Below are positions 23,882 through 37,341 of a stretch of DNA of 64,000 nt, piece after piece. The DNA is from Escherichia coli phage Wa28. The DNA is taken from sequence record LC788710.1. One strand, given 5' to 3'. Every line of letters starts with the position of its first letter. Positions within the stretch are counted from its first letter, which is position 1. The notes under the pieces are model-generated. The model was not told where the DNA came from and did no database searches. It worked only from the letters and a program-made list of their open reading frames with translations. The translations under genes were made by a program, and so were the position numbers.

Positions 23882-23957
23882 TGGTAGTTAGTAGTGGATT
23901 TGAACCACTGTAGTCGCTCCGTATGAAGGAGGTGCATAACCACTCTGCCAACTAACT
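23882..23957 (-). tRNA. tRNA-Met-type (anticodon CAU)
   Basis: Hand-folded: T-arm AGTGG/ATTTGAA/CCACT, anticodon loop gives codon ATG, encoded CCA. Confidence 0.7.
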
Positions 23958-23963
23958 ATAATT

Positions 23964-24039
23964 TGGTACTCCGACTTGGGATCGAACCAAGATTTGACGA
24001 TTATCGGTCGCCTGTTCTAACCGTTTGAACTATCGGAGC
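23964..24039 (-). tRNA. tRNA-Ile (GAU), atypical C33
   Basis: Hand-folded cloverleaf; loop sense CCGAUAA. Confidence 0.55.
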
Positions 24040-24040
24040 A

Positions 24041-24334
24041 TTACATCATTTCGTCTAAGTAAGAAGTATACTGGTATTTAGCTTCTCCAGTTTTATCTAC
24101 TTCGACTTCTGTTCTAGGTACTTTTCGTACCAGACCGTGAATCATCTTGTACTGAATAGACTTAGATGGTTCGTGATCTTTTGGAAATACTTGTTTAACC
24201 GTTACTACTTTGAAGCCTTCACGAGGTGTTAGCACAACAACTTGATCACCTTCTTTTATTTTCCAAGACTCAGGAAATTCGTAAGTGTAGCGTTGACCAC
24301 CCGTTTGGAACACGACAGAAAGATAACGTTTCAT
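24041..24334 (-). CDS. hypothetical protein (97 aa)
   Basis: ORF downstream of promoter. Confidence 0.5.
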   Translation of the reverse strand: MKRYLSVVFQTGGQRYTYEFPESWKIKEGDQVVVLTPREGFKVVTVKQVFPKDHEPSKSIQYKMIHGLVRKVPRTEVEVDKTGEAKYQYTSYLDEMM

Positions 24335-24364
24335 TTGGTTTCCCTCTCATTAATTTATGTAAAT

Positions 24365-24393
24365 ATTATAACAAGAAATAAGAGAGAAGGCAA
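24365..24393 (-). promoter_or_regulatory. early promoter TTGCCT-17-TATAAT
   Basis: Motif read. Confidence 0.6.
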
Positions 24394-24408
24394 ATGAATT
24401 TTTAAATT

Positions 24409-24483
24409 TGGTGCTCCCACCAGGAATCGAACCCGGTTCAGATGCTTACAAGGCAACTGCATCGCCAGCAATGCTTTAGGAGC
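24409..24483 (-). tRNA. tRNA-Thr (UGU)
   Basis: Hand-folded cloverleaf. Confidence 0.65.
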
Positions 24484-24650
24484 AATAAACCCGTTATTTC
24501 AACGGAATTTCTTTTTCAAATACAGGAGACTTATCAGACATTACTGTCATAGCCAACTGCTGTAGAAATTCGAATGAGAGTTTTAAACGTTCTTCACCCA
24601 ACTCAACCTCAACACACTTCATTTGCTTATCAACCTTTAGCTTTAGATTA

Positions 24651-24872
24651 TCAGCCCTCTTCGGGTTCTCTTTGCTCAGCTATTGCTAGCCAGTCTGGTA
24701 AAAGAAACTTAGTACGAAATTCTTCATATGTTTCTTCTGGATGAAAGCTATAGCCTTGCTTTTCATCATTTAATAAAACCGAACCGTCTTCCTGTTCATA
24801 AGCTCGGTATGTTTCACCAATAATTAAAACTCGTCTATTGGGGTTTTTATTACGAAACTCAAAAACGTCCAT
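24651..24872 (-). CDS. hypothetical protein (73 aa)
   Basis: ORF. Confidence 0.45.
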   Translation of the reverse strand: MDVFEFRNKNPNRRVLIIGETYRAYEQEDGSVLLNDEKQGYSFHPEETYEEFRTKFLLPDWLAIAEQREPEEG

Positions 24873-24887
24873 AACGTTTCCTTAAGT

Positions 24888-24962
24888 TGGTGCGGGATAC
24901 GAGAGTCGAACTCGTGTCTACTGGTTGGAAGCCAGTTATTCTAGCCACTGAACTAATCACGC
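24888..24962 (-). tRNA. tRNA-Gly (UCC)
   Basis: Hand-folded; perfect T-arm and anticodon stem. Confidence 0.75.
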
Positions 24963-24968
24963 ATAAAT

Positions 24969-25044
24969 TGGCTGGAGAAGGAGGAATCGAACCTACCATT
25001 AACGGAGTCAAAGGCCGTTGTGCTAACCGTTACACTACTCTCCA
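24969..25044 (-). tRNA. tRNA-Gln (UUG)
   Basis: Hand-folded. Confidence 0.65.
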
Positions 25045-25050
25045 AGTATT

Positions 25051-25126
25051 TGGCTGGGATGCCACGGATCGAACGTGGAACCTTCGGAGTCAGAGGCCGA
25101 CGATCTGCCAATTGATCTACATCCCA
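25051..25126 (-). tRNA. tRNA-Gln (CUG)
   Basis: Hand-folded; exact acceptor pairing. Confidence 0.7.
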
Positions 25127-25133
25127 ATAATTT

Positions 25134-25334
25134 TTATTCTACAGGAACCGTGGCAATTGGATCTGGTTCTTCTAGACGTTTACCATTATGGTCAACACGA
25201 ATAATACCACAACCTTCACAGATTACAACAGCACCATAGCCTTCTTTAACTTCGGCTTCTGTAATCAGACCAGAAAGATCACCAGTATCTTTGCCCCACA
25301 TATCGATAGAGCATTCTTTGCAGAAATCAGCCAT
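25134..25334 (-). CDS. small zinc-ribbon protein (66 aa)
   Basis: CKEC...CEGC. Confidence 0.45.
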   Translation of the reverse strand: MADFCKECSIDMWGKDTGDLSGLITEAEVKEGYGAVVICEGCGIIRVDHNGKRLEEPDPIATVPVE

Positions 25335-25358
25335 ATTTTAGTTCCTGTATAAGTTAAT

Positions 25359-25433
25359 TGGTGCATCCTCAGGGAATCGAACCCCGATCGTAAAGTTCGT
25401 AGCTTTACATTCTTTCCGTTGAAATAAGGACGC
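25359..25433 (-). tRNA. tRNA-Arg (ACG)
   Basis: Hand-folded; perfect anticodon stem. Confidence 0.7.
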
Positions 25434-25438
25434 ATATT

Positions 25439-25515
25439 TGGGGTGGCTAGTGGAATTCGAATCCACATAGGCCTGATTCACAATCAGGATCATTAACCAA
25501 TTATGATATAGCCAC
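25439..25515 (-). tRNA. tRNA-His (GUG)
   Basis: Hand-folded; 77 nt consistent with extra 5' G. Confidence 0.8.
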
Positions 25516-25896
25516 AATTGAATACTATTAGGGGATGATCAGTCCTCCATTTGGCCGTCTAAGGTACCAAAGTTAGTCATTCTGCGCACAGGTTTTTCTC
25601 CTGATTCTTTATTGCGAATGCTCTCTAATAATACTCAATTGTGGCGGCTCTCCGAAACTCTTCTACTCTAGCCTTAGCAGCTTACTCCCGAACGCATGTC
25701 GGGAAAGTCTTACTAAGAACATCAAATAGCACCGTTACACTTTGAGCCATTAATGTATCAAGAAGCAGAAGGACTTGAACCTTCACGAGATAGACCATTT
25801 ATCTCAGCCTCGTTTTCGGGTATCTTATGAGGAGTGGATGTTCCCCTTACGCCCTTTAGGAAGCCCCGTCTACCGATTCCGGCATACTTCAAGATT

Positions 25897-25986
25897 TGGC
25901 AGAAGATAATGGAGTCGAACCATCACCGTATCACTACAGCGGGCCGGTTTTCAAGACCGGTTACGTACCACTACGTCCTATCTTCT
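25897..25986 (-). tRNA. tRNA-Ser (UGA), type II
   Basis: Hand-folded; long variable arm. Confidence 0.7.
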
Positions 25987-26213
25987 AGTATTTGTTCTAC
26001 TTCTTTTCGAAGATCTTCTGGATTATCATGATAGGTTGTTTGCCATACATAAATAACTCCAGTATCACATGCTTTATCAAATATTTCTCGCTCAGGAAGT
26101 TTCATGCCCATTGCGTACTTGATATGAAACTCTAAAGCTTGCTTACTAGGGAATGTATGACGCAAGAAAAACTTATCATTAACTAAATCCAACATCATAA
26201 TCTTGACTTTCAT
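25971..26213 (-). CDS. hypothetical protein (80 aa)
   Basis: ORF. Confidence 0.45.
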   Translation of the reverse strand: MKVKIMMLDLVNDKFFLRHTFPSKQALEFHIKYAMGMKLPEREIFDKACDTGVIYVWQTTYHDNPEDLRKEVEQILEDRT

Positions 26214-26234
26214 TTATATTCCCTATTAGTTGTT

Positions 26235-26327
26235 TGGCGGAAGAAGAGAGATTCGAACTCTCAAGCCTGCTTTAACAAGTCAGCCACTTTCCAAGCGGTT
26301 TTCGTCACCTAATCGATTTGCTCTTCC
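26235..26327 (-). tRNA. tRNA-Ser (GGA), type II
   Basis: Hand-folded; variable-arm hairpin; one weak anticodon-stem pair. Confidence 0.55.
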
Positions 26328-26501
26328 GTAGATCTCAGGATTAAATCATAAACTTCATTAGCAGATACTGGAAGTATGAGATTATACATCTTTTGGTCAT
26401 ACCTCTGACCATACTCTATAAACACATACTCTTTAGTTAATGTATTAACAGCTAACCAGATATCAGTTATAGGAGTTTTCATCATGAGTTAATCCAATGT
26501 T

Positions 26502-26582
26502 TGGTAGGGATGGAGGGACTCGAACCCACACCCGAAGACTAGAACCTAAATCTAGCGCGTCTGCCAATTTCGCCACATCCCC
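26502..26582 (-). tRNA. tRNA-Leu (UAG)
   Basis: Hand-folded; perfect anticodon stem; 9-nt variable region. Confidence 0.6.
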
Positions 26583-26589
26583 ATTTTAT

Positions 26590-26808
26590 TTAGTTAGAAA
26601 TAAATAGTAACCCTGCAACAATGGAACCTATGCCACTGAATACCATTATCAGCATAGCTTCTAAGCTGATAAAGCGGACGTTATATGGAGCGCCCCAAGA
26701 ATAATCAGTAAAGAAAGTTTTCTTTTCTTTAGCTAAATCTTTAATAGTTCTAAAATAGATAGCTAGTGCTAAAGCTACAAGAACTACAGAGGCTGCTAAG
26801 AATACCAT
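26590..26808 (-). CDS. small membrane protein (72 aa)
   Basis: ORF. Confidence 0.4.
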   Translation of the reverse strand: MVFLAASVVLVALALAIYFRTIKDLAKEKKTFFTDYSWGAPYNVRFISLEAMLIMVFSGIGSIVAGLLFISN

Positions 26809-26827
26809 ATTATTTCCTTAATTTGTT

Positions 26828-26903
26828 TGGTGGAGTCACTCAGAATTGAACTGAGTTCCACTGCTTGCAAGGCAGTAAGTTTAACCAAATAACCTATGAC
26901 CCC
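26828..26903 (-). tRNA. tRNA-Ala (UGC)
   Basis: Hand-folded; G3-U70 in acceptor stem. Confidence 0.75.
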
Positions 26904-26908
26904 GAATT

Positions 26909-26987
26909 TGGTGGAGAATAAGAGATTCGAACTCTTCTGATATCCTCGGTGCAAGCGAGGTGTCCACTCCAAGCAGACCCATTCCCC
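26909..26987 (-). tRNA. tRNA-Ala (UGC), second copy
   Basis: Hand-folded; G3-U70 present. Confidence 0.6.
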
Positions 26988-27249
26988 AAAATCTTTAAGT
27001 TTACTAAGGCTATTAGCTCGGTGTGCGTATTACCCTCAGACATTAGCCAGTAGAGGATAACCGCTCTTCACAAACCCGATACACTATTCAGTTGCCGCTG
27101 AATCTAGTGGACTAATCTAGAACTTATTGCAAAGTATCCCCCGCCATTAAGGGTCTACTTGCAATTGTGCTTTTTGGCAGCCAGTCCTAGGTCGAGCTAA
27201 TACCTTAGTGAACTTTGATGAGGATTTCTCCTCATCAATTTATATAAAT

Positions 27250-27278
27250 ATTATAACAAGAAATTAAGCATCAAGCAA
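27250..27278 (-). promoter_or_regulatory. early promoter TTGCTT-17-TATAAT
   Basis: Motif read. Confidence 0.7.
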
Positions 27279-27630
27279 GTACATTTTTAGCGATTTCTTG
27301 TATTTCCTTAACGTCACTAACGAAAAGGTAATCAGAGCTTCCAGAGTGCATACTCTGCATAACCACACCATCCTCTGGTGCATCTTCTTTCAAAGTAATA
27401 CCTAACCAGAACTCGGCAAAACTAGGTGTTACCTCACCTTGACTTGCCTTGAATACATCGGCTTCTGTGATCTCCTGACCAGTAGAGAGTCCCATGTACG
27501 GTACGTTCAGATCAATATCTTTGTAAAACTCAGCTAGATCTTGTTCGAAGTCCCAACCTTTAGAGATAGCGAACTCCATTGTTACATGACCGAAATAGCC
27601 TTGAACCTTGCTTGATAATTGCATTTGCAA
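27271..27630 (-). CDS. hypothetical protein (119 aa)
   Basis: ORF. Confidence 0.55.
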   Translation of the reverse strand: MQMQLSSKVQGYFGHVTMEFAISKGWDFEQDLAEFYKDIDLNVPYMGLSTGQEITEADVFKASQGEVTPSFAEFWLGITLKEDAPEDGVVMQSMHSGSSDYLFVSDVKEIQEIAKNVLA

Positions 27631-27649
27631 TTCCTTATTTTGAGTTAAT

Positions 27650-27723
27650 TGGTACTCGGTGATAGAATCGAACTATCGCAACCGCCGTGTAAAGACGGGG
27701 TTCTCCCATTAAACTAACCGAGC
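27650..27723 (-). tRNA. tRNA-Val (UAC)
   Basis: Hand-folded. Confidence 0.65.
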
Positions 27724-27727
27724 AATT

Positions 27728-27805
27728 TGGTGGATTGCCTGGGATTCGAACCCAGAACTGACGGATTAAAGGTCCGCTACTCTTATCCGGTTGAGCTAGC
27801 AATCC
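27728..27805 (-). tRNA. tRNA-Lys (UUU), atypical C33
   Basis: Hand-folded; exact acceptor pairing, GCUC D-stem; loop sense CCUUUAA. Confidence 0.6.
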
Positions 27806-28269
27806 AATTTTTCTACTAATAATTTAAAAGCATCTAGTACAGGTACTTCAAACCATTCCCCGGATACTCTGTAGTCTTTGAGAAGATTATGTAACTCTTT
27901 CTCCGTACGTCTTTTATCTGACGAAAATCTGAAATGGTGTAGCTTGTAGTCTCTATTAGGTGAATAGGTTTGATAACTTGCTAACCTCTCATTTACATCT
28001 ATAGTCATACCTATTTTATACATGCCTGGCCATGCGGGATTACCGATTACATATACAAAACCTTCCGTTATAGGTATTTTATGTTCTCTTTTGTATTTTA
28101 AGAGATTTAAAGCTGCCATTCGATAACAGAATTTAAATTCTGAAGTTTTTAACTTACCCTCTTTACCAGAAATTTCATTATATTTGCTCATATAAGCTCT
28201 TATAAGCTTATCATCTATAATAAAATTATCAGGAAGGTTTAAGGCAGCTAAAACTTTATTAATTAGCAT
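27796..28269 (-). CDS. T5orf172-domain (GIY-YIG-like) protein
   Basis: GFVYVIGNPAWPGMYKIGMT...YQTYSP motif. Confidence 0.65.
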   Translation of the reverse strand: MLINKVLAALNLPDNFIIDDKLIRAYMSKYNEISGKEGKLKTSEFKFCYRMAALNLLKYKREHKIPITEGFVYVIGNPAWPGMYKIGMTIDVNERLASYQTYSPNRDYKLHHFRFSSDKRRTEKELHNLLKDYRVSGEWFEVPVLDAFKLLVEKLDC

Positions 28270-28444: not shown

Positions 28445-28522
28445 TGGAAGCGGGTGCAGGAATCGAACCTACCTCTTTCTAGCTTATGAGACTAGCGATC
28501 TCTACCAGAGATCTAACCCGCA
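28445..28522 (-). tRNA. tRNA with CAU anticodon (Met, fMet or Ile2)
   Basis: Hand-folded. Confidence 0.6.
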
Positions 28523-28528
28523 ATTGTT

Positions 28529-28606
28529 TGGTCTCCGTGGGAGGATTTGAACCCCCGACCCTATCGCCCCAAACGAAACGCTCTAGCCAAACTGAGCTAC
28601 ACGGAG
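28529..28606 (-). tRNA. tRNA-Pro (UGG)
   Basis: Hand-folded; exact acceptor pairing. Confidence 0.65.
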
Positions 28607-28638
28607 AATATTCTTTGTTAACTCACTTTATAAAATAT

Positions 28639-28667
28639 ATTATACAGAGAATTAAGCTAAATAGCAA
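28639..28667 (-). promoter_or_regulatory. early promoter TTGCTA-17-TATAAT
   Basis: Motif read. Confidence 0.65.
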
Positions 28668-28921
28668 CTACATTTTTTAATAAATTTACTTATTGCGTAG
28701 GCCACCTGGAGGGTTCAAGCCCCACGGCTGACAAAGAAGTTTGCGAGACTTCTCTTAAACGCCAGAATAGACCCGCCGATCTATCGGAACCTACTCAATA
28801 AGTAAACTTTCGTTTACCTACACCTACCTGGTCGGGAGGATTTTCAGCGACTAGAACCGGCCGGAAACTCATCGCCTTGTTTATCTAGGAGTCCGTTCTC
28901 TAGGAAGCAGAAACCTAAATT

Positions 28922-28995
28922 TGGTGCGGTCGGAGGGAATCGAACCCTCAACTTCTGGTTGGCAACCAAAAATTATACCTTTTAACTACGAACGC
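28922..28995 (-). tRNA. tRNA-Gly (GCC)
   Basis: Hand-folded. Confidence 0.7.
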
Positions 28996-29001
28996 ATAAT
29001 A

Positions 29002-29130
29002 AGTCAATCTAGGCAGGACTTGAACCTGCTATCACTTGTGCGGATTTACGAGAACCATTCTTTCACTCGAATCGAACGAGCTTCTACCCTCGGCAAGCTG
29101 GTGTCCCCTCTCCACCACGCTAGAATGATA
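29002..29130 (-). other. two degenerate tRNA-like elements (T-arm-like GCAGG/ACTTGAA/CCTGC and CTCG/AATCGAA/CGAG) lacking full cloverleaf
   Basis: T-arms found; no pairing acceptor or canonical anticodon arm. Confidence 0.3.
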
Positions 29131-29208: not shown

Positions 29209-29285
29209 TGGTACACCCACTAGGACTTGAACCTAGAACCTACCGCTTAAGAGGCGGTAGCTCTAACCAATTGAGCTATGGATGT
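29209..29285 (-). tRNA. tRNA-Lys (CUU)
   Basis: Hand-folded; perfect anticodon stem. Confidence 0.7.
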
Positions 29286-29291
29286 ATAATT

Positions 29292-29366
29292 TGGCGGTAC
29301 TAAGGGTAATCGAAACCCTACCTCTCCCGTGACAGGGGAGTATCCTAACCGTTAGACTATAGTACC
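29292..29366 (-). tRNA. tRNA-Asp (GUC)
   Basis: Hand-folded; exact acceptor pairing. Confidence 0.75.
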
Positions 29367-29938
29367 TTTAACTTTTTAAGTTCTTTAGGATTGCCTCCTA
29401 AAGAAGTGTATCTTTTACGCAACCCATTATCTGAATAACTTAACTTTCTCCCTGCACCTGACCAGCCTAGCTCTCTTACTGTAACCTCGATTATTTCTTT
29501 AGTTATAGAGATATCTTTTGGTTTATGTGAAGAGCACTCCTGACATTTTTCAGCTTTTAAAGAAATAGCTTTACCACAATCCTTACAACAATTATCATGG
29601 TTTAGTTTACTAAATCCTTTATCTTTTAAAGTCTTTTCTAGATGCTGCTCTTTTGTGAGCACTTGTAAGTTATTAAGACCCCAATAAGTAATGTCTGTGT
29701 TAATATGGTCAACTTCTAGTTCAGAGTCTAGACTTGGTAATTTCTTAAATGCACATGCTAAAATCCTATGTACACCGGTATTTCTCTGTTGACCATTTTT
29801 ATGGAGACGTATAGATAAGTATCCGTAATTACTGGTTATTTGGGTTAGTATTTTGTTTGATTTGATACTAAATACTAACCCATCCAAACTTACTAAGTAC
29901 TCCTCAAACCCTGGAATGGGTAAGGATATTCCGTGCAT
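29357..29938 (-). CDS. HNH homing endonuclease
   Basis: NGYLSIRL...HRILACAF...VDHIN motifs; Cys cluster. Confidence 0.65.
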   Translation of the reverse strand: MHGISLPIPGFEEYLVSLDGLVFSIKSNKILTQITSNYGYLSIRLHKNGQQRNTGVHRILACAFKKLPSLDSELEVDHINTDITYWGLNNLQVLTKEQHLEKTLKDKGFSKLNHDNCCKDCGKAISLKAEKCQECSSHKPKDISITKEIIEVTVRELGWSGAGRKLSYSDNGLRKRYTSLGGNPKELKKLKVL

Positions 29939-30127: not shown

Positions 30128-30230
30128 ATCTATTTCCTCAGTTGTTAATGAAAAATGGTATCTGTGACTGAATTCGATATCAGCAATGATAGCTGGTTGG
30201 CTACCGGTTTACTTAACTCTACACAGAATA

Positions 30231-30313
30231 TGGCGGGCCGTGTAGGATTCGAACCTACGTTGTCTTTCGACATGGATTAACAGTCCACCGCCAAACCGCT
30301 TGGCTAACGACCC
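30231..30313 (-). tRNA. tRNA-Asn (GUU) with unusually long (13-nt) variable region
   Basis: Hand-folded. Confidence 0.55.
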
Positions 30314-30320
30314 TAAAATT

Positions 30321-30396
30321 TGGACGACCGCATGAGATTCGAACTCACATAAGGAGGTTTTGCAGGCCTCCGCCTAAGCCATTCAGCCAACGGTCG
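30321..30396 (-). tRNA. tRNA-Cys (GCA)
   Basis: Hand-folded. Confidence 0.6.
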
Positions 30397-30574: not shown

Positions 30575-30813
30575 TTAACACGCTCCGGTAAATCTTCGAG
30601 TTTATATTGAGTAGCCACATTAGCAGCATCTAGTAACAAACCCATATGTTTAAGAATCCTAGTGATAGCCTCGCCTTCTGCTTCTTCTACAAAAGTGCGT
30701 AGTTGAATGAAGTCAATACCCCCATCCATACCAGAGAAAATGTTTAGTAAGCGAAGCATTACCAGCTTACGTTCTTTCAATTCTTGTTCTGTCATGTTGC
30801 TTCTCCAGTTCAA
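30571..30813 (-). CDS. hypothetical protein (80 aa)
   Basis: ORF downstream of promoter. Confidence 0.45.
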   Translation of the reverse strand: MNWRSNMTEQELKERKLVMLRLLNIFSGMDGGIDFIQLRTFVEEAEGEAITRILKHMGLLLDAANVATQYKLEDLPERVK

Positions 30814-30824
30814 TTTATGTAATA

Positions 30825-30853
30825 ATTATACAGAACTTTAAGCGGTTAAGCAA
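30825..30853 (-). promoter_or_regulatory. early promoter TTGCTT-17-TATAAT
   Basis: Motif read. Confidence 0.65.
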
Positions 30854-31124
30854 CTACATTTTTTAAGAATTTGATGCCTTTCTTTTTCTTCTTATATTTC
30901 CACGTTAACGGGTTCTGTCGATTATGAACGCTTGAGATCTTTGTCTCGTCAAAGTTCTTCAAAACCATGTAATCACAGGCCAACTGTTCTAGTGGGATGT
31001 GATCTCCATCAAAAGCATAAACATAAGGCTGTTGACTAGCACGATAATGATAGACTTTGTTAATTCTGCGTTTCAGTGACTTATCCGCACAGTAAATAAA
31101 GAAGTTTTCAGGATGCATCAGCAT
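30846..31124 (-). CDS. hypothetical protein (92 aa)
   Basis: ORF. Confidence 0.45.
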   Translation of the reverse strand: MLMHPENFFIYCADKSLKRRINKVYHYRASQQPYVYAFDGDHIPLEQLACDYMVLKNFDETKISSVHNRQNPLTWKYKKKKKGIKFLKNVVA

Positions 31125-31135: not shown

Positions 31136-31210
31136 TGGTGCACCCTGTTCGTATCGAACGAACCTCTCAAGCTCTTCAGGCAAGCGCTAATCCATCTCAG
31201 CTAAAGGTGC
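31136..31210 (-). tRNA. tRNA-Phe (GAA), weak anticodon stem
   Basis: Hand-folded; two U-U mismatches in anticodon stem. Confidence 0.5.
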
Positions 31211-31216
31211 AAATAT

Positions 31217-31293
31217 TGGCAAACCTACTAGGACTCGAACCTAGACCGTACGGTTTTGGAGACCGACATGCTGTCCAGTAACACTCTAGGAAT
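31217..31293 (-). tRNA. tRNA-Trp (CCA)
   Basis: Hand-folded; acceptor stem 5/7 paired. Confidence 0.55.
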
Positions 31294-31301
31294 GCAGAAA
31301 T

Positions 31302-31378
31302 TGGCGTCCTGTGCGGGGATCGAACCCGCAAACCCCACCTTGAAAGGGTGGTGACTTTACCAGTTTGTCTAACAGGAC
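31302..31378 (-). tRNA. tRNA-Glu (UUC)
   Basis: Hand-folded; all stems perfect. Confidence 0.8.
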
Positions 31379-31860
31379 TTAAATTGTTTATTGGATAGAT
31401 TGTTAAACTCGGAAAGTATGTCGTCTACACTTCTGTCTAACACTACCCATTCATTAAGCCGTTCAGGAAAGCTATTATGAAGCATTTTCTCCGCTTCTCT
31501 AGCATTAAACCAAAATGACCAATGTATTAACTTATAATCACGTAAGGGAGAATAAGTTTGGTAATTTCCTAATCTTGTTTTAGGATCAGAAGACATACCA
31601 ATTTTTACATAGTTATCCCACGCTGGGTTAGTTATTGCATAAATAAAACCACAGCTGGATTTTTCTCCAATACTTTTGTTATACTTGATAAAAGATAGGG
31701 CAGATAACTTCAAGCTATATCGACGATTACTATCGCGACCAAAGTTAGCTGTACCAAATGTGAGGCTTTCTAATATTAGATCTTTGTTTATATCGGCGGG
31801 TGAACCCAACTGTATAATACCTCTATTTGCAGCTTCTTGAATTATCCGATCAATATACAT
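31369..31860 (-). CDS. T5orf172-domain (GIY-YIG-like) protein
   Basis: GFIYAITNPAWDNYVKIGMS...YQTYSP motif. Confidence 0.65.
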   Translation of the reverse strand: MYIDRIIQEAANRGIIQLGSPADINKDLILESLTFGTANFGRDSNRRYSLKLSALSFIKYNKSIGEKSSCGFIYAITNPAWDNYVKIGMSSDPKTRLGNYQTYSPLRDYKLIHWSFWFNAREAEKMLHNSFPERLNEWVVLDRSVDDILSEFNNLSNKQFKSC

Positions 31861-31877
31861 ATCCTTTACCTTTAATT

Positions 31878-31965
31878 TGGTGGGCGTTAATGGAGTCGAA
31901 CCACTCGAGTCGCAATGACCAGGGATTTACAATCCCCTCCGCTACCACTTACGGAATAAACGCCC
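31878..31965 (-). tRNA. tRNA-Tyr (GUA), type II
   Basis: Hand-folded; long variable arm. Confidence 0.7.
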
Positions 31966-32094
31966 ATATTTAGAAGTATTCAAATACTTGTTTAAACACT
32001 TTTAAATATGTTTTCCAAATTAGATATCTATTATATCAAGTTTTGAAGGACTGAGCAAGTCAAATTTTAAAGAACTTGCTCAGTGCTACATCAG

Positions 32095-32370: not shown

Positions 32371-32400
32371 TCGTTAACTCCTTCATCAATTTATATAACT

Positions 32401-32430
32401 ATTATAACAGAAATCTTAAGTAAAAAGCAA
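32401..32430 (-). promoter_or_regulatory. early promoter TTGCTT-18-TATAAT
   Basis: Motif read. Confidence 0.6.
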
Positions 32431-32460
32431 GTACATTTTTAAAATTTCTGCTTGGAGGAG

Positions 32461-32733: not shown

Positions 32734-32818
32734 TAGTTGAAGCCTTAATGCTATGGAAACGACAGTACATAAATTTACGTAGTGCTTTCTTAATAGCTTT
32801 CATTTTATTTCCTTAATT

Positions 32819-32895
32819 TGGTAGGGGTGGTGGGATTCGAACCCACAAAACCTGAATTTTAAGTCCAGTACCTATGCCAATTCGATTACACCCCC
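32819..32895 (-). tRNA. tRNA-Leu (UAA), short variable loop
   Basis: Hand-folded; D-arm poorly paired. Confidence 0.55.
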
Positions 32896-32903
32896 ATGTA
32901 ATC

Positions 32904-33257
32904 TTAGCGAATCTCTAAACCCTGGAAATATCGAGGGAATGGAGAGCCAACTTCAAAATTGATGCCCCAATTAAGTTCAACGAGTTCAGATTTATTAAGA
33001 TCTAGGCCATTACCTTCAAAGATATAGCCGTAAACCGCAGGAAACATAGCTGCTAGATCTTCCATATCGGAATGAGCATTGTGTTCTTCACGGAACTGCT
33101 CAAACTCTTCAAAGAACTTTTCTAGGAAGAACTCAGGTACGATGAACGTTACCACATCAGTAGAATCATCGGTACGATACACCGTAGCTTGGAACAAGCC
33201 AACACCTAAAAGGTTTATTGCCGGAGTAGTAAAAATATCCATCTTAGCCTCGCTCAA
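32904..33257 (-). CDS. hypothetical acidic protein (117 aa)
   Basis: ORF. Confidence 0.5.
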   Translation of the reverse strand: MSEAKMDIFTTPAINLLGVGLFQATVYRTDDSTDVVTFIVPEFFLEKFFEEFEQFREEHNAHSDMEDLAAMFPAVYGYIFEGNGLDLNKSELVELNWGINFEVGSPFPRYFQGLEIR

Positions 33258-33429
33258 TGTCTAGACAAATTGCATATTCAGGGTTGATACCAGTACCTTT
33301 ACATGTAGGACATTCCCATTCTCTACAGAAAATACCCCCCGGTTCTGCATCATCCTGCCTACCACCACCATGACAGTCCTTACACCGACATTCTTCTAAT
33401 GCTTTCTTCATTTCATAGAATCTAGACAT
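33244..33429 (-). CDS. small zinc-ribbon protein (61 aa)
   Basis: CRCKDCHG...CREWECPTC. Confidence 0.45.
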   Translation of the reverse strand: MSRFYEMKKALEECRCKDCHGGGRQDDAEPGGIFCREWECPTCKGTGINPEYAICLDIERG

Positions 33430-33446
33430 ATAGTCTCCTGGTTAAT

Positions 33447-33524
33447 TGGTGGCTCCCGGAGGATTCGAACCTACCTACCTTTCGCTTATGAGGCGACGGC
33501 TCATACCAAATGAGCTTGAGAACC
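33447..33524 (-). tRNA. tRNA with CAU anticodon (Met, fMet or Ile2), third copy
   Basis: Hand-folded; anticodon loop identical to 28445-28522. Confidence 0.6.
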
Positions 33525-33529
33525 AAATT

Positions 33530-33623
33530 TGGAGGAAGATGCCAGACTCGAACTGGCACACCGTGTCTCCACAGCTACTGGCTGTTTAGCAAACAGCTCC
33601 CTTACCTTTAGGGTTAATCTTCC
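33530..33623 (-). tRNA. tRNA-Ser (GCU), type II
   Basis: Hand-folded; perfect anticodon stem, exact acceptor pairing. Confidence 0.7.
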
Positions 33624-33637
33624 GAATTTATGAATAT

Positions 33638-33666
33638 ATTATACAGAAAATTTCGGCATTAAGCAA
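33638..33666 (-). promoter_or_regulatory. early promoter TTGCTT-17-TATAAT
   Basis: Motif read. Confidence 0.65.
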
Positions 33667-33674
33667 GTGAAATT

Positions 33675-33971
33675 TTACTGAACACTGCACTGATACACTT
33701 GTTTGATACGTGTCACTGACTTCTTAGTTGGATTGATAGAAGAACCTTGCCACCAACGTGACTCTGAGCTAAGAACAGCGCCAGGAACAGCCTGCTCTTT
33801 TGGCAGAACAATATCAAAACACTGTTCACCCATATTATCTTTAATGTGTGACCAAATATCCAAAGTAAATCGTTCTAACTTATTACAAACCTGAACTTGA
33901 CAAAGTTCCTGTTGCGGAGCAGCAAATACAGAAGTAGATACTAGAGCCAATGCAAGTACAATGCGTTTCAT
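33675..33971 (-). CDS. secreted protein (signal peptide), 98 aa
   Basis: MKRIVLALALVSTSVFAAP. Confidence 0.5.
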   Translation of the reverse strand: MKRIVLALALVSTSVFAAPQQELCQVQVCNKLERFTLDIWSHIKDNMGEQCFDIVLPKEQAVPGAVLSSESRWWQGSSINPTKKSVTRIKQVYQCSVQ

Positions 33972-34001
33972 GTTTGATTCCTCTCTCGAATTTATAAATA
34001 T

Positions 34002-34030
34002 ATTATACAGAAATTTTCTATATTAAGCAA
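34002..34030 (-). promoter_or_regulatory. early promoter TTGCTT-17-TATAAT
   Basis: Motif read. Confidence 0.65.
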
Positions 34031-34077
34031 GTGAAAATTTCTGTATAATAGCCCTCGCTTAGAGGGCTATAACTACT

Positions 34078-34770
34078 TTATTTGTTAACGCGTACAAAGT
34101 ATCCTTTATAAGCTCCAAGAATAGAGTTGCCTAAGAATACTAGCCACATTGCTAGGATTGCGTAAGATGCACCTGTAGATTGAGCAGTTACAAGCCAAAT
34201 GTACACAGTACCAATGTTAATAGCAATCCAAATCAGCCATTGTTCAGCATATTGTTTGACCATAAGCCACATAGCAATCACACTACCAACCGCAGTAAAT
34301 GCATCCAACATTGGGAATGGATCAGCCGTAGTAGCAAGGAAACTACCATAACCTAACGTGGCTACTGCTAAAATCCCTAGAGTCAGCAAAGCTTGAGCTT
34401 TTGTCAGAACTTTAGTTGGAACATCCGGTAGATTACTTGGCTTATTTTTATGCCACAAGTACATTCCGTAGAACTGCATAGGAACGTAGTACAATAGGTT
34501 TAGTGCTGCGTTACCATAAAGATCAGCATTTAGAGCTGTAATACCGTAGGTCAGAACACCTACCAAACCCCAGACATAGTTGGAAACACGTCCTTTTGCA
34601 ACCAGAATAACACAAACCACATTGGTTATTGCAGTAGCCCAATCTAGAGCTGTACCATTATAGTTTGCTAAACTAATGAAGACAACCGCTATGAACAGCC
34701 ACAGATATTCCAGAGGTTTCCAGTTTTTAAAGTCATTTACGAGATAGTTAGTCATATTAAAACTCTCCAA
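34078..34770 (-). CDS. pnuC: PnuC-family nicotinamide riboside/NMN transporter
   Basis: Multi-TM; EQWLIWIAINIGTVYIW resembles E. coli PnuC ENWLLWVIINVISVVIF. Confidence 0.75.
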   Translation of the reverse strand: MESFNMTNYLVNDFKNWKPLEYLWLFIAVVFISLANYNGTALDWATAITNVVCVILVAKGRVSNYVWGLVGVLTYGITALNADLYGNAALNLLYYVPMQFYGMYLWHKNKPSNLPDVPTKVLTKAQALLTLGILAVATLGYGSFLATTADPFPMLDAFTAVGSVIAMWLMVKQYAEQWLIWIAINIGTVYIWLVTAQSTGASYAILAMWLVFLGNSILGAYKGYFVRVNK

Positions 34771-35830
34771 CGTTAAAGTGATGAATCAGCCAGTCTACTG
34801 CGTTTACTGCTTCGTCCATACGAACTTTGTAGTCCGGAGAGTCGATGTAAACAGTACGCCCTTCAGGGAACTGATTTGGAAATTCTTTCTTCATCTGCTC
34901 GAACAGTTCAGAAGTAATTGAACGATCGGAGTTAATACGTAAACCATCATCTACCCACTTGACAGTAGGCGCTAGAACAATTACTAAATCGTAATGTTCT
35001 TCTTTTGCAATTGCTGTAACCACAGGGTTCTTACTATGTTCATAAAGTCTGTGGTAGAACTCAGTAATAAAAGCATTTGTATCCACAAACATGATCTTAT
35101 TTGCAGTACGTTCTGCTTCAAACTCTAGCTCTTTGTGTCTGAACGCAATTTTACTATAGTCTTCGCTGGTAAGCAGATTTTCGTTACCAACTAGATCAAC
35201 TTCACAATACGTTCGGCCATATTCTTCTACCCACGAAGTGTTGTATAGCTTCGCAAGGTATTTTGTTAAAGTAGTCTTTCCTGAGCTTTCAGTCCCAATG
35301 ATTACAACCTTACGCACGTAATCTTTACGAGCTACGCTAGGAAGAAACTCCCAATACTTCATAAGATCATTACGAATCATTGTAGCTGAGATTGGAACAC
35401 GAGTCCGATCAGAATCTACAATATAATGACCAAACTTCGGCAGATATTTCTTATATTCTGCATCATAGTCTAGTTCGCTAGAGAAAATGGTGATCTCAGG
35501 CAAATGTCCGTAATTTTCATTAAGGATTCTAGCATATTCCGGCCAACCATTCGGATATTCAGGAATATCATCTTCAATAATGTACTCTACCGAAATGTGC
35601 TCAATATCCGCGTAAGTTTGTTCTAACCAACGAAGTCGATTCTTTAACTGTAATACTTCCTGATCACGAGTGTTCTGCTTATCCAGCCAACGATTATCAT
35701 GACTAACTACAACAATAACTCGTTCACACATAGTTGCTGCTGTGTTTATTAGGTTAATATGACCACGCGTTAATGGCGCGAACTTACCAATTACTAGACC
35801 AGTCTTAATCATATTTGATTCCTCTCTCAA
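34757..35830 (-). CDS. nadR: NadR-like bifunctional NMN adenylyltransferase / ribosylnicotinamide kinase
   Basis: N-terminal GKFAPLTRGH nucleotidyltransferase motif; central GTESSGKTT P-loop. Confidence 0.75.
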   Translation of the reverse strand: MREESNMIKTGLVIGKFAPLTRGHINLINTAATMCERVIVVVSHDNRWLDKQNTRDQEVLQLKNRLRWLEQTYADIEHISVEYIIEDDIPEYPNGWPEYARILNENYGHLPEITIFSSELDYDAEYKKYLPKFGHYIVDSDRTRVPISATMIRNDLMKYWEFLPSVARKDYVRKVVIIGTESSGKTTLTKYLAKLYNTSWVEEYGRTYCEVDLVGNENLLTSEDYSKIAFRHKELEFEAERTANKIMFVDTNAFITEFYHRLYEHSKNPVVTAIAKEEHYDLVIVLAPTVKWVDDGLRINSDRSITSELFEQMKKEFPNQFPEGRTVYIDSPDYKVRMDEAVNAVDWLIHHFNVGEF

Positions 35831-35842
35831 ATTTATAAATAT

Positions 35843-35871
35843 ATTATACAGAGAATTTAGCGTTCAAGCAA
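35843..35871 (-). promoter_or_regulatory. early promoter TTGCTT-17-TATAAT
   Basis: Motif read. Confidence 0.65.
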
Positions 35872-36024
35872 TCGAATTTTTAAACTTTTTAGTGGAAAAA
35901 TCTCAAGGCATTTAGTGGTAGCACGTTGTTGCTACAATAATAGTATATGATTCTAAAGAATTAAAGAATTAAATACTAAAGACCTTAGTTGAATAACTTA
36001 TGGGCTTTTCTTTTGCCTTAAATA

Positions 36025-36059
36025 CAGAAAAGCCCGCGCTCTCGGAGGAAACGCGGGCT
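36025..36059 (-). terminator. rho-independent terminator (GCCCGCG..CGCGGGC)
   Basis: 7-bp GC stem with A run on plus. Confidence 0.7.
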
Positions 36060-36083
36060 TGGTTCGAAGATTACGTGTAACTA

Positions 36084-37028
36084 TTACTTGTTACGCATAT
36101 CCATGATCATTTGACCATCGTAGCCAGTACCAACAACAGTCTGCGGTACACCACCTTGGTATTTTTCAGCACGAAGCATTTCAACTTCCAGCTGCTTCCA
36201 ACGAATCATTTCAGGAGTAATGGTACGTTGCAGCGCGGCGTTAGCTTCAGCTTCTTTCTTAGCTGCGTACAGTTTAGCATCTGCGTCACGTTCGTTAGCT
36301 ACTGCCATGTTTTCACGAGCAGAACGATCAGCTTCAGCTTGCTTAACTTTCTGCTGTGCTTCTTGTTCAACACGAGCCAATTCAGCTTTAGCGGCGTTAA
36401 CTTGTTCTTCACGAACTTTTGTGTTTTGTACCTGTTCCATGATTACAGGTGGCAGAGTAATATCCTGAAGGAATACTTGCTTAACCGTGTAACCATAAGG
36501 ACGCGCGTACTCTTCTACTTCTTGCTGAATAGCAGTTTGCAGTTGAGCCTGAATCTTAGCGTCGAACAGATCTTGTGCTTTTGGTACAGACTTACCAAAC
36601 TCACGAATCGTAGATAGCATCTTCTCTTCAACGTACTTGTTCAGAGCTTGATCCTGAGTACCTGCGTTAACACGGTTCATAGGAGCTTTAGCACCATCAA
36701 ACTGCAACATAACGGTAATGTCAACAGTGGACTTAAACTTATCCTGGCTAGGAACCTGGAGTTTATCCAGTTTCATAGAAATATCTTTCGTACTAAAAGT
36801 ATCAAAAGAGGCGAATGGGTTGACAATATGGAACCCCGGCAATACAGGATTAGGACTAACTTTACCCAGGAAAGTCTGAGTTTTAACCGTACCGTCCTGA
36901 ACAACTGTATAGGAATTGAGAGCCAGAATAAGAGCGCCAAGACCAACTACAGCACCAACACCCCAACGTTTAATAGTACGAATTACTTTTTGATCGGAAG
37001 TCAGTTCTTTAGTGTTTTTAGTAAACAT
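36084..37028 (-). CDS. SPFH/band-7 (prohibitin/HflC-like) membrane protein
   Basis: N-terminal TM, SPFH core, Ala/Glu/Lys-rich coiled-coil tail. Confidence 0.75.
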   Translation of the reverse strand: MFTKNTKELTSDQKVIRTIKRWGVGAVVGLGALILALNSYTVVQDGTVKTQTFLGKVSPNPVLPGFHIVNPFASFDTFSTKDISMKLDKLQVPSQDKFKSTVDITVMLQFDGAKAPMNRVNAGTQDQALNKYVEEKMLSTIREFGKSVPKAQDLFDAKIQAQLQTAIQQEVEEYARPYGYTVKQVFLQDITLPPVIMEQVQNTKVREEQVNAAKAELARVEQEAQQKVKQAEADRSARENMAVANERDADAKLYAAKKEAEANAALQRTITPEMIRWKQLEVEMLRAEKYQGGVPQTVVGTGYDGQMIMDMRNK

Positions 37029-37039
37029 ATATTTCCTTA

Positions 37040-37240
37040 TTATTTAGAAGAGTTAGCTACTACAGTTACTTTAGTTGCAGAAATAAACAGGCTAGCATCC
37101 ACAGCAAATTCAGGAGCTTTGATATCTCCGTTATGAAATATGACTATACCGGAGACTACTTCAAATGCTAGCGCTGTAACATCGGTGGTATTTACTTGTG
37201 AATGTTCACCTACTACTTTTACTATATATCGTGTTTTCAC
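37040..37240 (-). CDS. small protein, possible NfeD-like partner of SPFH
   Basis: 66-aa ORF immediately upstream of SPFH gene; beta-rich composition. Confidence 0.35.
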   Translation of the reverse strand: MKTRYIVKVVGEHSQVNTTDVTALAFEVVSGIVIFHNGDIKAPEFAVDASLFISATKVTVVANSSK

Positions 37241-37266
37241 TTTATTTTCCTAGCAGTTAATAAAAT

Positions 37267-37341
37267 TGGCCGAGGTGACAGGATTCGAACCTGCATAAAG
37301 GAATTTAGAAGACTCCTGCCTATCCCTTAGACTACACCCCG
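37267..37341 (-). tRNA. tRNA-Arg (UCU)
   Basis: Hand-folded. Confidence 0.65.

What the first reader, a model, noticed from the sequence alone, without database searches (positions are those of the whole stretch)
23882..37341. Thirty-gene tRNA array decoding all 20 amino acids, with three CAU tRNAs and duplicated Ala, Gln, Gly, Lys, Leu, Arg, Ser isoacceptors
Hand-folding found 30 cloverleaves on the minus strand, most with encoded CCA, in promoter-fed sub-clusters interleaved with small ORFs and homing endonucleases. The set is near self-sufficient for decoding; three CAU anticodons fit initiator, elongator Met and Ile2 roles.
Basis: partly seen in the sequence, partly recalled or inferred. 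Interest (0 to 1): 0.55.

Follow-up and report, generated by a model that had tools for sequence, protein, structure and literature searches.

The report
T5-type phage tRNA gene array
This is the well-known tRNA gene region of a T5-like (Epseptimavirus) phage: 30 tRNA genes covering all 20 amino acids, mixed with homing endonucleases and small RNAs, and ordinary for this phage group.

Summary
ARAGORN finds 29 tRNAs on the minus strand at 23882-37341, and Rfam covariance models match all 29. All 29 carry an encoded CCA. A 30th gene, tRNA-Ser(GGA) at 26235-26327, is missed by ARAGORN. It is the homolog of T5 tRNAS2 and of a tRNA-Ser annotated in phage BSP22A, with six compensatory base-pair changes.

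The window is 95-98% identical to published Epseptimavirus genomes (Shin27, BSP22A, EPS7). BSP22A annotates the same 30 tRNAs in the same order.

- 23882 is 100% identical to T5 tRNA-Met.
- 28445 is 100% identical to T5 tRNA-fMet.
- 33447 is the homolog of T5 tRNA-Ile2.

Three homing-endonuclease ORFs are confirmed. All 11 promoters annotated in this part of the T5 record have homologs in the same relative order, although a generic sigma-70 scan shows no enrichment.

The set reads every amino acid, but under strict wobble it does not read every codon. The likely function, shown experimentally for T5 and inferred here, is a phage-owned decoding set. It favours phage-preferred codons and replaces host tRNAs that are lost or cleaved by defences such as PARIS and Retron-Eco7.

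Verdict: real, correctly interpreted, already known.

The parts
23882..23957 (-). tRNA-Met(CAU), elongator type
   Evidence: ARAGORN. Rfam 51.5 bits. 100% identical to T5 tRNAM(CAU).
23964..24039 (-). tRNA-Ile(GAU), with C33 in place of U33
   Evidence: Rfam 58.9 bits. The anticodon loop CCGAUAA is shared with BSP22A and NBSal002.
24339..24413 (-). Homolog of T5 promoter P11
   Evidence: 92% identity over 75 nt. The consensus scan finds TTGCCT-17-TATAAT at 24393-24365.
24409..24483 (-). tRNA-Thr(UGU)
   Evidence: 96% identical to the T5 gene.
24888..25126 (-). Cluster of tRNA-Gln(CUG) 25051-25126, tRNA-Gln(UUG) 24969-25044 and tRNA-Gly(UCC) 24888-24962
   Evidence: 56.4, 50.0 and 65.5 bits.
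25359..25515 (-). tRNA-His(GUG) 25439-25515 and tRNA-Arg(ACG) 25359-25433
   Evidence: His is 100% identical to T5.
25642..25893 (-). Homologs of the T5 stable RNAs RNA1 (tRNA-like, about 25893-25749) and RNAI (about 25748-25642)
   Evidence: Alignment to T5. T-loop motif at 25772-25780. The T5 record calls them stable RNAs of unknown function.
25897..25986 (-). tRNA-Ser(UGA), class II
   Evidence: Rfam 32.1 bits with the tRNA model and 42.3 bits with the Sec model. 90% identical to T5 S1.
26235..26327 (-). tRNA-Ser(GGA), the 30th gene. Its 3-bp D stem follows a 4-nt connector, which is non-canonical.
   Evidence: Not called by ARAGORN. Annotated as tRNA-Ser in BSP22A. Six compensatory pairs against T5 tRNAS2.
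26502..26582 (-). tRNA-Leu(UAG), 81 nt, short variable arm
   Evidence: 53.5 bits.
26828..26987 (-). Two tRNA-Ala(UGC) genes, 26909-26987 (ortholog of the T5 tRNA-Ala gene) and 26828-26903. Both have G3.U70.
   Evidence: 38.1 and 59.6 bits. Alignment. Acceptor stems.
27008..27278 (-). Homolog of T5 stable RNA RNA2H (about 27180-27008) and of promoter P13b (27278-27224)
   Evidence: P13b 98% over 55 nt.
27650..27805 (-). tRNA-Lys(UUU) 27728-27805, with C33, and tRNA-Val(UAC) 27650-27723
   Evidence: The C33 allele is shared with EPS7, phiR2-01 and Kenya-K15.
27796..28269 (-). ORF with a T5orf172/MUG113 (GIY-YIG-like) domain, a putative homing endonuclease. Its stop codon lies inside tRNA-Lys.
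   Evidence: Pfam PF13455 at 1e-18 and PF10544 at 5e-15. PHROG 5032.
28445..28677 (-). Homolog of promoter P13a (28677-28623), tRNA-Pro(UGG) 28529-28606 and initiator-type tRNA-fMet(CAU) 28445-28522
   Evidence: fMet is 100% identical to T5 tRNAfM. U1.U72 and A11:U24.
28922..28995 (-). tRNA-Gly(GCC)
   Evidence: 61.1 bits.
29003..29127 (-). Homolog of the T5 tRNA-like stable RNA RNA2
   Evidence: Alignment. Two T-loop motifs.
29209..29366 (-). tRNA-Asp(GUC) 29292-29366 and tRNA-Lys(CUU) 29209-29285
   Evidence: 63.1 and 69.6 bits.
29357..29938 (-). NUMOD4/HNH homing endonuclease, a paralog of T5 F-TflII and F-TflI. Its end overlaps tRNA-Asp.
   Evidence: Pfam. PHROG HNH families. 43% and 38% identity to T5 hegD and hegC.
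30156..30396 (-). tRNA-Cys(GCA) 30321-30396, tRNA-Asn(GUU) 30231-30313 (83 nt, with an extra variable hairpin) and a homolog of T5 RNA3 at 30228-30156
   Evidence: RNA3 is 97% identical to T5.
30799..30873 (-). Homolog of T5 promoter P14b
   Evidence: 89% over 75 nt.
31136..31378 (-). tRNA-Glu(UUC) 31302-31378, tRNA-Trp(CCA) 31217-31293 and tRNA-Phe(GAA) 31136-31210
31369..31860 (-). Second T5orf172/GIY-YIG-like putative homing endonuclease. Present in BSP22A, absent from Shin27.
   Evidence: 44% identical to ORF 27796-28269. 40% identical to T5.069.
31878..32076 (-). Homolog of promoter P14a (32076-32012) and tRNA-Tyr(GUA) 31878-31965
   Evidence: The Tyr allele goes with presence of the endonuclease ORF.
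32375..32449 (-). Homolog of T5 promoter P15c
   Evidence: 91% over 75 nt.
32819..32895 (-). tRNA-Leu(UAA), 77 nt, class-I size
   Evidence: 57.4 bits.
33447..33623 (-). tRNA-Ser(GCU) 33530-33623 and the CAU tRNA at 33447-33524, homolog of T5 tRNA-Ile2
34078..37240 (-). Protein genes inside the array: PnuC 34078-34770, NadR 34757-35830, SPFH/Band 7 protein 36084-37028, and a small ORF 37040-37240. The homolog of promoter P15a lies at 35891-35817.
   Evidence: Pfam. Annotated relatives..
37267..37341 (-). tRNA-Arg(UCU)
   Evidence: 49.3 bits. 98.7% identical to T5.
37342..38240 (-). Leader homologous to T5 RNAX, with a degenerate tRNA-like element at 37874-37945 and the homolog of promoter P16-17 at 38240-38183
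   Evidence: Rfam 29.3 bits. Alignment to T5 RNAX..

Best explanation
This is the early-transcribed tRNA gene region of a T5-like siphovirus (Demerecviridae, genus Epseptimavirus).

What the sequence shows:
- There are 30 tRNA genes in short runs, often only 4-9 nt apart, all on one strand.
- The runs sit downstream of strong host-type promoters.
- Between them lie small ORFs, tRNA-like stable RNAs and free-standing homing endonucleases.

What is inferred from T5 and from general tRNA biology:
- Host RNA polymerase transcribes the runs, and host RNase P and other processing enzymes cut them up.
- Host enzymes charge and modify the tRNAs. For the Ile2-type CAU tRNA this means TilS, and for the fMet type it means the formyltransferase.

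The result is a phage-owned set of decoders for all 20 amino acids plus initiation. It probably does two things. First, it tops up decoding of codons the phage uses more than the host does (CUA, AGA, AAG, GUA, AUA, GGA). Second, and probably more important, it keeps translation going when host tRNAs are no longer made or are cleaved by tRNA-targeting defences. The sequence-diverged phage isoacceptors escape those nucleases.

The homing endonucleases are selfish passengers. They move tRNA alleles between related phages.
For: Identity of the region:
- 95-98% DNA identity to Shin27, BSP22A, EPS7 and others.
- Same gene order as the annotated relatives and as the curated T5 record.

The tRNAs are real.

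Promoters: all 11 promoters annotated in this part of the T5 record have homologs in the same relative order. Three are also picked up by the consensus scan at 10 of 12 matches.

Codon match:
- Codons with a Watson-Crick cognate phage tRNA are enriched in window ORFs relative to E. coli. The mean log2 ratio is +0.29 against -0.32 for the other codons (Mann-Whitney p=0.043).
- The top enriched codons with a cognate tRNA are CUA 4.2x, AGA 3.7x, AAG 2.5x, GUA 2.3x, AUA 2.0x and GGA 1.8x.

Defence evasion, shown experimentally in T5:
- T5 tRNA-Lys(UUU), Thr(UGU) and Asn(GUU) neutralise PARIS/AriB (PMC11464382, PMC12409363).
- T5 tRNA-Tyr rescues from Retron-Eco7 (cited in PMC10644984).

In the window:
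- At the AriB site U36AAUC|A41, Thr reads UAAGCA and Lys reads UAAUCC. Both differ from the E. coli sequence.
- The tRNAs form a mosaic against T5. Some are 96-100% identical (Met, fMet, His, Arg, Phe, Thr, Val, Glu). Others have no detectable similarity (Lys, Asn, Pro, Trp, Leu, Gln, Ile1).

Mobility of the endonucleases: presence/absence differences among near-identical phages, and a linked swap of the tRNA-Tyr allele.
Against: - No expression, charging or modification data exist for this phage. Function is carried over from T5.
- The codon-compensation signal is modest (p=0.043). It uses an E. coli codon table recalled from memory and crude ORF calls.
- Window tRNA-Asn keeps the same UAAUCC site as the E. 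coli gene, and window tRNA-Lys keeps U39. Resistance to PARIS is therefore not predictable from sequence alone.
- The T5 record notes that the amber-suppressor derivatives of several of its tRNAs, including S2(GGA), are inactive. Some of these genes may be weak or non-decoding.
- The fMet-type gene lacks the three G-C pairs normally needed for binding in the ribosomal P site.
Confidence: 0.93

Rival explanations
1. Pure codon compensation. The array exists only to supply tRNAs for codons that are common in the AT-richer phage (about 40% GC) and rare in the host. Defence plays no part.
For: Phage-enriched codons that are rare in E. coli (CUA, AGA, AUA, GGA) all have cognate phage tRNAs. Most anticodons start with U34, which suits A-ending codons.
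Against: - The enrichment is weak (p=0.043).
- The set also includes tRNAs for codons that the host decodes well and the phage uses less, such as CAG, GGC and AGC.
- A full set for 20 amino acids goes beyond what compensation would need.
- T5 experiments show a specific anti-PARIS and anti-retron role for individual tRNAs.
Confidence: 0.25
2. Replacement of a collapsing host tRNA pool. T5-like phages destroy host DNA early, which stops host tRNA synthesis. The phage therefore carries its own set simply to maintain supply late in infection.
For: - The set is nearly complete, covering all 20 amino acids and an initiator.
- It lies in the early region, behind homologs of strong T5 early promoters.
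- The idea is cited for T5-like phages in PMC10644984.
Against: - Mature tRNAs are stable over a 30-60 minute infection (general knowledge).
- It does not explain why many isoacceptors have diverged strongly in the anticodon stem-loop.
- T5 deletion mutants that lack 16 tRNAs are viable on ordinary hosts (PMC11464382).
Confidence: 0.3
3. Many of the 30 are decayed or non-decoding tRNA-like genes, for example processing signals, decoys or endonuclease targets, rather than working tRNAs.
For: - The region does hold tRNA-like RNAs that are not tRNAs: the homologs of T5 RNA1, RNA2, RNA3 and RNAX.
- Ser(GGA) has an odd D arm.
- Trp has only 5 of 7 acceptor pairs.
- Two tRNAs have C33.
- The T5 record reports inactive suppressor derivatives for about half of its tRNAs.
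Against: - 29 of 30 match covariance models, most at 40-70 bits.
- All have encoded CCA and intact stems.
- Compensatory changes preserve the cloverleaf even in the weakest gene.
- Identity elements are kept: G3.U70 in both Ala genes, U73 in Cys, C29-G41 in Ile2.
Confidence: 0.07

Closest known systems
tRNA gene region of Epseptimavirus phages (EPS7, BSP22A, Shin27, Stitch)
   Same: - 95-98% nucleotide identity.
- BSP22A (KY787212) annotates the same 30 tRNAs in the same order, including the third Ser.
- The same PnuC/NadR/SPFH block separates tRNA-Arg(UCU) from the rest of the array.
   Different: Only presence/absence of individual homing endonucleases and small ORFs. For example, 31369-31860 is absent from Shin27, and 27796-28269 and 29357-29938 are absent from BSP22A. 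Some tRNA alleles also differ (Lys and Tyr).
Bacteriophage T5 tRNA gene region (AY543070, about 28.0-41.6 kb)
   Same: - Same order of orthologous tRNAs.
- The same three CAU genes (Met, fMet, Ile2) and the same Ser(GGA).
- The same stable RNAs (RNA1, RNAI, RNA2, RNA2H, RNA3, RNAX).
- The same promoters, P11 to P16-17.
- HNH endonucleases of the F-Tfl family.
   Different: - T5 has 23-24 tRNAs. The window adds Arg(ACG), Gly(GCC), Lys(CUU), Leu(UAA) and a second Ala(UGC). Its Gln(CUG) looks intact, whereas the T5 record marks that gene as a pseudogene.
- About half of the shared isoacceptors are replaced by strongly diverged alleles.
- The PnuC/NadR genes are not annotated in the fetched T5 region.
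- The endonucleases sit at different sites.
Phage T4 tRNA cluster (8 tRNAs, species 1 and 2 RNAs, SegB)
   Same: A cluster of phage tRNA genes with tRNA-like stable RNAs and a GIY-YIG homing endonuclease. It includes a CAU tRNA that reads Ile (from my own knowledge of T4; SegB and tRNA-Tyr are covered in PMC13096335, of which only the abstract was seen).
   Different: T4 has only 8 tRNAs, no initiator and no complete amino-acid set. The sequences are unrelated.

Membership tests
Canonical bacterial-type tRNA genes (Rfam RF00005) | Cloverleaf that scores above the covariance-model gathering threshold | tested here: met
   26 of the 29 score at or above 29 bits in the default pass. Ala-UGC2 reaches 38.1 bits in the sensitive pass, and Tyr is matched by the class-II Sec model. 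Ser(GGA) is sub-threshold, but its cloverleaf is supported by 6 compensatory pairs.
Canonical bacterial-type tRNA genes (Rfam RF00005) | 7-nt anticodon loop with U33 and a purine at position 37 | tested here: met
   28 of 30 are canonical. Ile(GAU) and Lys(UUU) have C33, which is conserved in relatives.
T5-like (Markadamsvirinae) tRNA gene region | Nucleotide homology and shared gene order with the tRNA regions of T5 and EPS7 | tested here: met
T5-like (Markadamsvirinae) tRNA gene region | T5-type early promoters upstream of the tRNA runs | tested here: met
   All 11 promoters annotated in the T5 record have homologs at 88-98% identity in the same relative order. Promoter activity was not tested.
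T5-like (Markadamsvirinae) tRNA gene region | Interspersed stable tRNA-like RNAs and F-Tfl-type homing endonucleases | tested here: met
Bacterial initiator tRNA (fMet) | Mismatch at positions 1:72 | tested here: met
   U1.U72 in 28445-28522.
Bacterial initiator tRNA (fMet) | A11:U24 in the D stem | tested here: met
   D stem GAUC/GAUC.
Bacterial initiator tRNA (fMet) | Three consecutive G-C pairs (29-31 with 39-41) in the anticodon stem | tested here: not met
   The stem is CUAGU/GCUAG, with only G30-C40. The T5 gene, annotated as initiator fMet, has the same sequence. So this gene is initiator-like rather than a canonical initiator.
tRNA-Ile2 (CAU anticodon, lysidine-modified) | Homology to a CAU tRNA annotated as Ile2, with the IleRS/TilS-type elements A73, A37, A38, U12-A23 and C29-G41 | tested here: met
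   86% identical to T5 tRNAI2. C29-G41 is kept although the rest of the stem has changed. The list of identity elements comes from memory of the E. coli literature.
tRNA-Ile2 (CAU anticodon, lysidine-modified) | Lysidine at C34 and charging with isoleucine | not testable with these tools
   Needs mass spectrometry or charging assays.
Homing endonucleases (HNH, and GIY-YIG-like T5orf172) | Nuclease domain, and presence/absence differences between otherwise near-identical genomes | tested here: met
   Domains. Differences against Shin27 and BSP22A. Cleavage activity was not tested.

The most novel reading that the evidence does not exclude
Two tRNAs, Lys(UUU) and Ile(GAU), carry C33 in place of the near-universal U33. 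This is conserved across many Epseptimavirus genomes. Several other isoacceptors (Tyr, Asn, Lys) have been replaced wholesale by different alleles, and the Tyr swap goes with presence of a homing endonuclease. These may be specific adaptations that make the tRNAs resistant to anticodon nucleases that cut next to position 33/34, such as PrrC or RloC, or to other tRNases. The endonucleases would then spread the resistant alleles between phages. I found no paper that describes the C33 variants.
Probability: 0.3. Interest if true: 0.4.

Novelty: already known. Interest (0 to 1): 0.12.

Why it matters
It adds nothing new in kind.

tRNA arrays of T5-like phages are of current interest because individual T5 tRNAs (Lys, Thr, Asn, Tyr) have been shown to neutralise tRNA-cleaving defences (PARIS, Retron-Eco7). 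The allele differences seen here are useful raw material for that line of work, but they are refinements: C33 in Lys and Ile, altered AriB-site bases in Thr and Lys, and a Tyr allele that goes with an endonuclease.

Tried and rejected
- **Generic sigma-70 promoter scan.** It was not enriched over shuffles (34 against 38.3). By itself it therefore gives no support for 'promoter-fed' clusters. Homology to the promoters annotated in T5 was used instead.
- **My own regex for T5-type promoters.** It was off by one in the spacer and found nothing useful. Ignored.
- **The marginal Rfam hit at 37874-37945 as a 31st tRNA.** Rejected. It has no CCA, has mismatches at acceptor pairs 1:72 and 5:68, and has U at position 37. 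It aligns to an internal element of T5 RNAX.
- **T-loop motifs at 25772, 29017 and 29069 as extra tRNAs.** Rejected. They belong to the homologs of the T5 tRNA-like stable RNAs RNA1 and RNA2.
- **'tRNA-OTHER' labels in NBSal002.** They turned out to be ordinary tRNAs that the annotation had labelled poorly.
- **Loading the T5 locus into Python.** This failed because the files were not synced. I worked around it by reading the sequences from saved alignments.
- **Literature search for C33 in phage tRNAs.** It found nothing relevant.

Full report
**Observation**

ARAGORN on the whole window finds 29 tRNA genes. All are on the minus strand between 23882 and 37341, and there are none elsewhere. 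Rfam's tRNA model reaches its gathering score for 26 of them in the default pass. A sensitive pass adds the second Ala gene (38.1 bits) and matches Tyr with the class-II tRNA-Sec model.

Every one of the 29 ends in an encoded CCA. All have 5-7 of 7 acceptor pairs and 3-5 of 5 anticodon-stem pairs. The T-loop motif GTTCRANTC occurs 30 times in the window against 4.3 expected.

All 20 amino acids are covered, there are three CAU genes, two Ala(UGC) genes, and more than one anticodon for Gln, Gly, Lys, Leu, Arg and Ser.

**The 30th gene**

At 26235-26327 there is a class-II cloverleaf with anticodon GGA, discriminator G and CCA. ARAGORN misses it, and Rfam gives it only a sub-threshold score.

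It is near-identical to a gene annotated as tRNA-Ser in Salmonella phage BSP22A. It is also the positional and structural homolog of T5 tRNAS2(GGA). On a three-sequence alignment, 95% of cells pair and six pairs changed on both sides, against two in shuffles and at most one in shifted registers.

Its D arm is unusual: a 3-bp stem follows a 4-nt connector. The T5 record notes that its suppressor derivative is inactive. So it is a conserved tRNA gene whose decoding activity is unproven.

**What the region is**

The 14.5 kb around the array is 95-98% identical to many published T5-like phages of the genus Epseptimavirus, including Shin27, BSP22A, EPS7 and Stitch. In all, 700 phage records match.
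- Shin27 annotates the same 29 tRNAs.
- BSP22A annotates the same 30, in the same order.

The curated T5 record AY543070 covers the homologous region in detail. It lists tRNAM(CAU) next to Ile1(GAU), tRNAfM(CAU) next to Pro, tRNAI2(CAU) next to Ser3(GCU), and Ser2(GGA). It also lists stable RNAs of unknown function (RNAI, RNAIII, RNAIV, RNA2H, RNAX, and the tRNA-like RNA1, RNA2 and RNA3), the HNH endonucleases F-TflI, II, IV and V, and promoters P10a to P16-17.

**The three CAU tRNAs**

- Window 23882-23957 is 100% identical to T5 tRNAM.
- Window 28445-28522 is 100% identical to T5 tRNAfM.
- Window 33447-33524 is 86% identical to T5 tRNAI2, with a compensated rewrite of the anticodon stem.

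Compared with E. coli metZ, metT and ileX:
- The fMet-type gene shares acceptor pairs 2-6, a 1:72 mismatch (U.U) and A11:U24 with the initiator. It lacks the three G-C pairs of the anticodon stem.
- The Ile2-type gene keeps C29-G41, U12-A23, A37, A38 and A73.
- The Met-type gene has U29-A41, like metT.

The list of identity elements is from my memory of the E. coli literature. The sequence comparison itself is a tool result. One caveat is that the initiator is non-canonical.

**Homing endonucleases and small ORFs**

- ORF 29357-29938 has NUMOD4 and HNH motifs. It is 43% identical to T5 F-TflII and 38% identical to F-TflI.
- ORFs 27796-28269 and 31369-31860 carry the T5orf172/MUG113 (GIY-YIG-like) domain. 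They are 44% identical to each other and 40% identical to T5.069.

Each of the three ends about 10 nt inside the 5' end of the next tRNA gene (Lys, Asp, Glu). They are present or absent in different, otherwise near-identical phages.

Where ORF 31369-31860 is present (the window and BSP22A), the neighbouring tRNA-Tyr is one allele. In Shin27, which lacks this ORF, Tyr is a very different allele. That is what co-conversion by a homing endonuclease would produce.

**Promoters**

A generic sigma-70 scan is not enriched over shuffles (34 against 38.3). However, all 11 promoters annotated in the T5 record have homologs in the window at 88-98% identity and in the same relative order. Three of them are the strongest minus-strand hits of the scan: 24393-24365, 28667-28639 and 38229-38201. 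So 'promoter-fed sub-clusters' is supported by homology, not by statistics.

**Decoding capacity and codon usage**

Under strict wobble the 30 anticodons leave 11 sense codons unread: NNU and NNC in the Ala, Val, Thr, Pro and Leu four-codon boxes, and CGG. With cmo5U-type or unmodified U34 wobble most of these would be read. 'Near self-sufficient' is therefore fair for amino acids and conditional for codons.

I compared 76 window ORFs with an E. coli codon table recalled from memory. Codons with a Watson-Crick cognate phage tRNA are modestly enriched (p=0.043). The clearest cases are CUA 4.2x, AGA 3.7x, AAG 2.5x, GUA 2.3x, AUA 2.0x and GGA 1.8x.

**Mechanism**

Shown here:
- real tRNA genes
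- homologs of the T5 early promoters
- a bias toward phage-preferred codons
- strongly diverged alleles for many isoacceptors

Shown in T5 by others:
- T5 tRNA-Lys(UUU), Thr(UGU) and Asn(GUU) escape the PARIS nuclease AriB and restore infection (PMC11464382, PMC12409363).
- T5 tRNA-Tyr counters Retron-Eco7 (cited in PMC10644984).

Inferred for this window: the same dual role of codon supply and defence-proof replacement tRNAs.

At the AriB site U36AAUC|A41, the window's tRNAs read as follows:
- Thr reads UAAGCA, with position 39 changed.
- Lys reads UAAUCC, with position 41 changed.
- Asn reads UAAUCC, unchanged from the E. coli tRNA-Asn.

Resistance is therefore plausible for two of the three, but it cannot be predicted from sequence alone.

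**Side observations**

- Lys(UUU) and Ile(GAU) have C33 in place of U33. The Lys allele is shared by EPS7, phiR2-01, Kenya-K15 and about 85 records. The Ile feature is shared by BSP22A and NBSal002 but not by T5.
- Both Leu genes are short (77 and 81 nt), and Asn has an extra variable hairpin.
- tRNA-His has U rather than G at position -1.
- Homologs of T5 RNA1, RNAI, RNA2, RNA2H, RNA3 and RNAX are all present.

**Verdict**

It describes a long-known, well-annotated feature of T5-like phages. Novelty is 'already known' and interest is low. The only mildly new angle is the set of conserved anticodon-loop oddities and the tRNA allele that goes with an endonuclease.

Noticed in passing
window 27728-27805 (Lys-UUU) and 23964-24039 (Ile-GAU): Both tRNAs have C at position 33 instead of the near-universal U33 (loops CCUUUAA and CCGAUAA). 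The Lys allele is conserved in EPS7, phiR2-01, Kenya-K15 and Shin27. T5 and BSP22A carry U33 alleles. A literature search found no paper that describes this.
   Followed up: partly
window 25642-25893, 27008-27180, 29003-29127, 30156-30228, 37342-38180: Homologs of the T5 'stable RNAs with unknown functions' are present: RNA1, RNAI, RNA2H, RNA2, RNA3 and RNAX. Several are tRNA-like with T-arm hairpins. Their role is still unknown, even in T5.
   Followed up: partly
window 31369-31965 vs L001 9380-9490: The T5orf172-type endonuclease ORF between Glu and Tyr is present in the window and in BSP22A, together with one tRNA-Tyr allele. Shin27 is otherwise 97.8% identical. It lacks this ORF and has a very different Tyr allele. 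This suggests the endonuclease drives exchange of the tRNA allele.
   Followed up: partly
window 32819-32895, 26502-26582, 30231-30313: tRNA-Leu(UAA) is 77 nt and tRNA-Leu(UAG) is 81 nt, so both lack the long class-II variable arm of bacterial tRNA-Leu. tRNA-Asn(GUU) is 83 nt and has an extra GUC-GAAA-GAC hairpin in its variable region.
   Followed up: no
window 25439-25516: tRNA-His has T at position -1, not the encoded G-1 that pairs with C73 in E. coli. The T5 record includes this U-1 in the gene.
   Followed up: no
window 34078-37028: An NAD-salvage pair (PnuC transporter and NadR adenylyltransferase/kinase) and an SPFH/Band 7 protein lie inside the tRNA array. They separate tRNA-Arg(UCU) from the other 29 genes.
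   Followed up: partly
window 37342-38000 vs L001 14922-15439: Immediately past tRNA-Arg(UCU) (towards higher window coordinates, which is upstream of the gene) the best relative, Shin27, stops matching. It has a 510-nt CDS there. The window instead keeps the T5 RNAX-like leader, as BSP22A does.
   Followed up: partly
window 28445-28522: The initiator-type tRNA (identical in T5) has U1.U72 and A11:U24 but lacks the three G-C anticodon-stem pairs. Its stem-loop differs from the E. coli initiator at the site where VapC-type toxins cut (positions 38/39).
   Followed up: no
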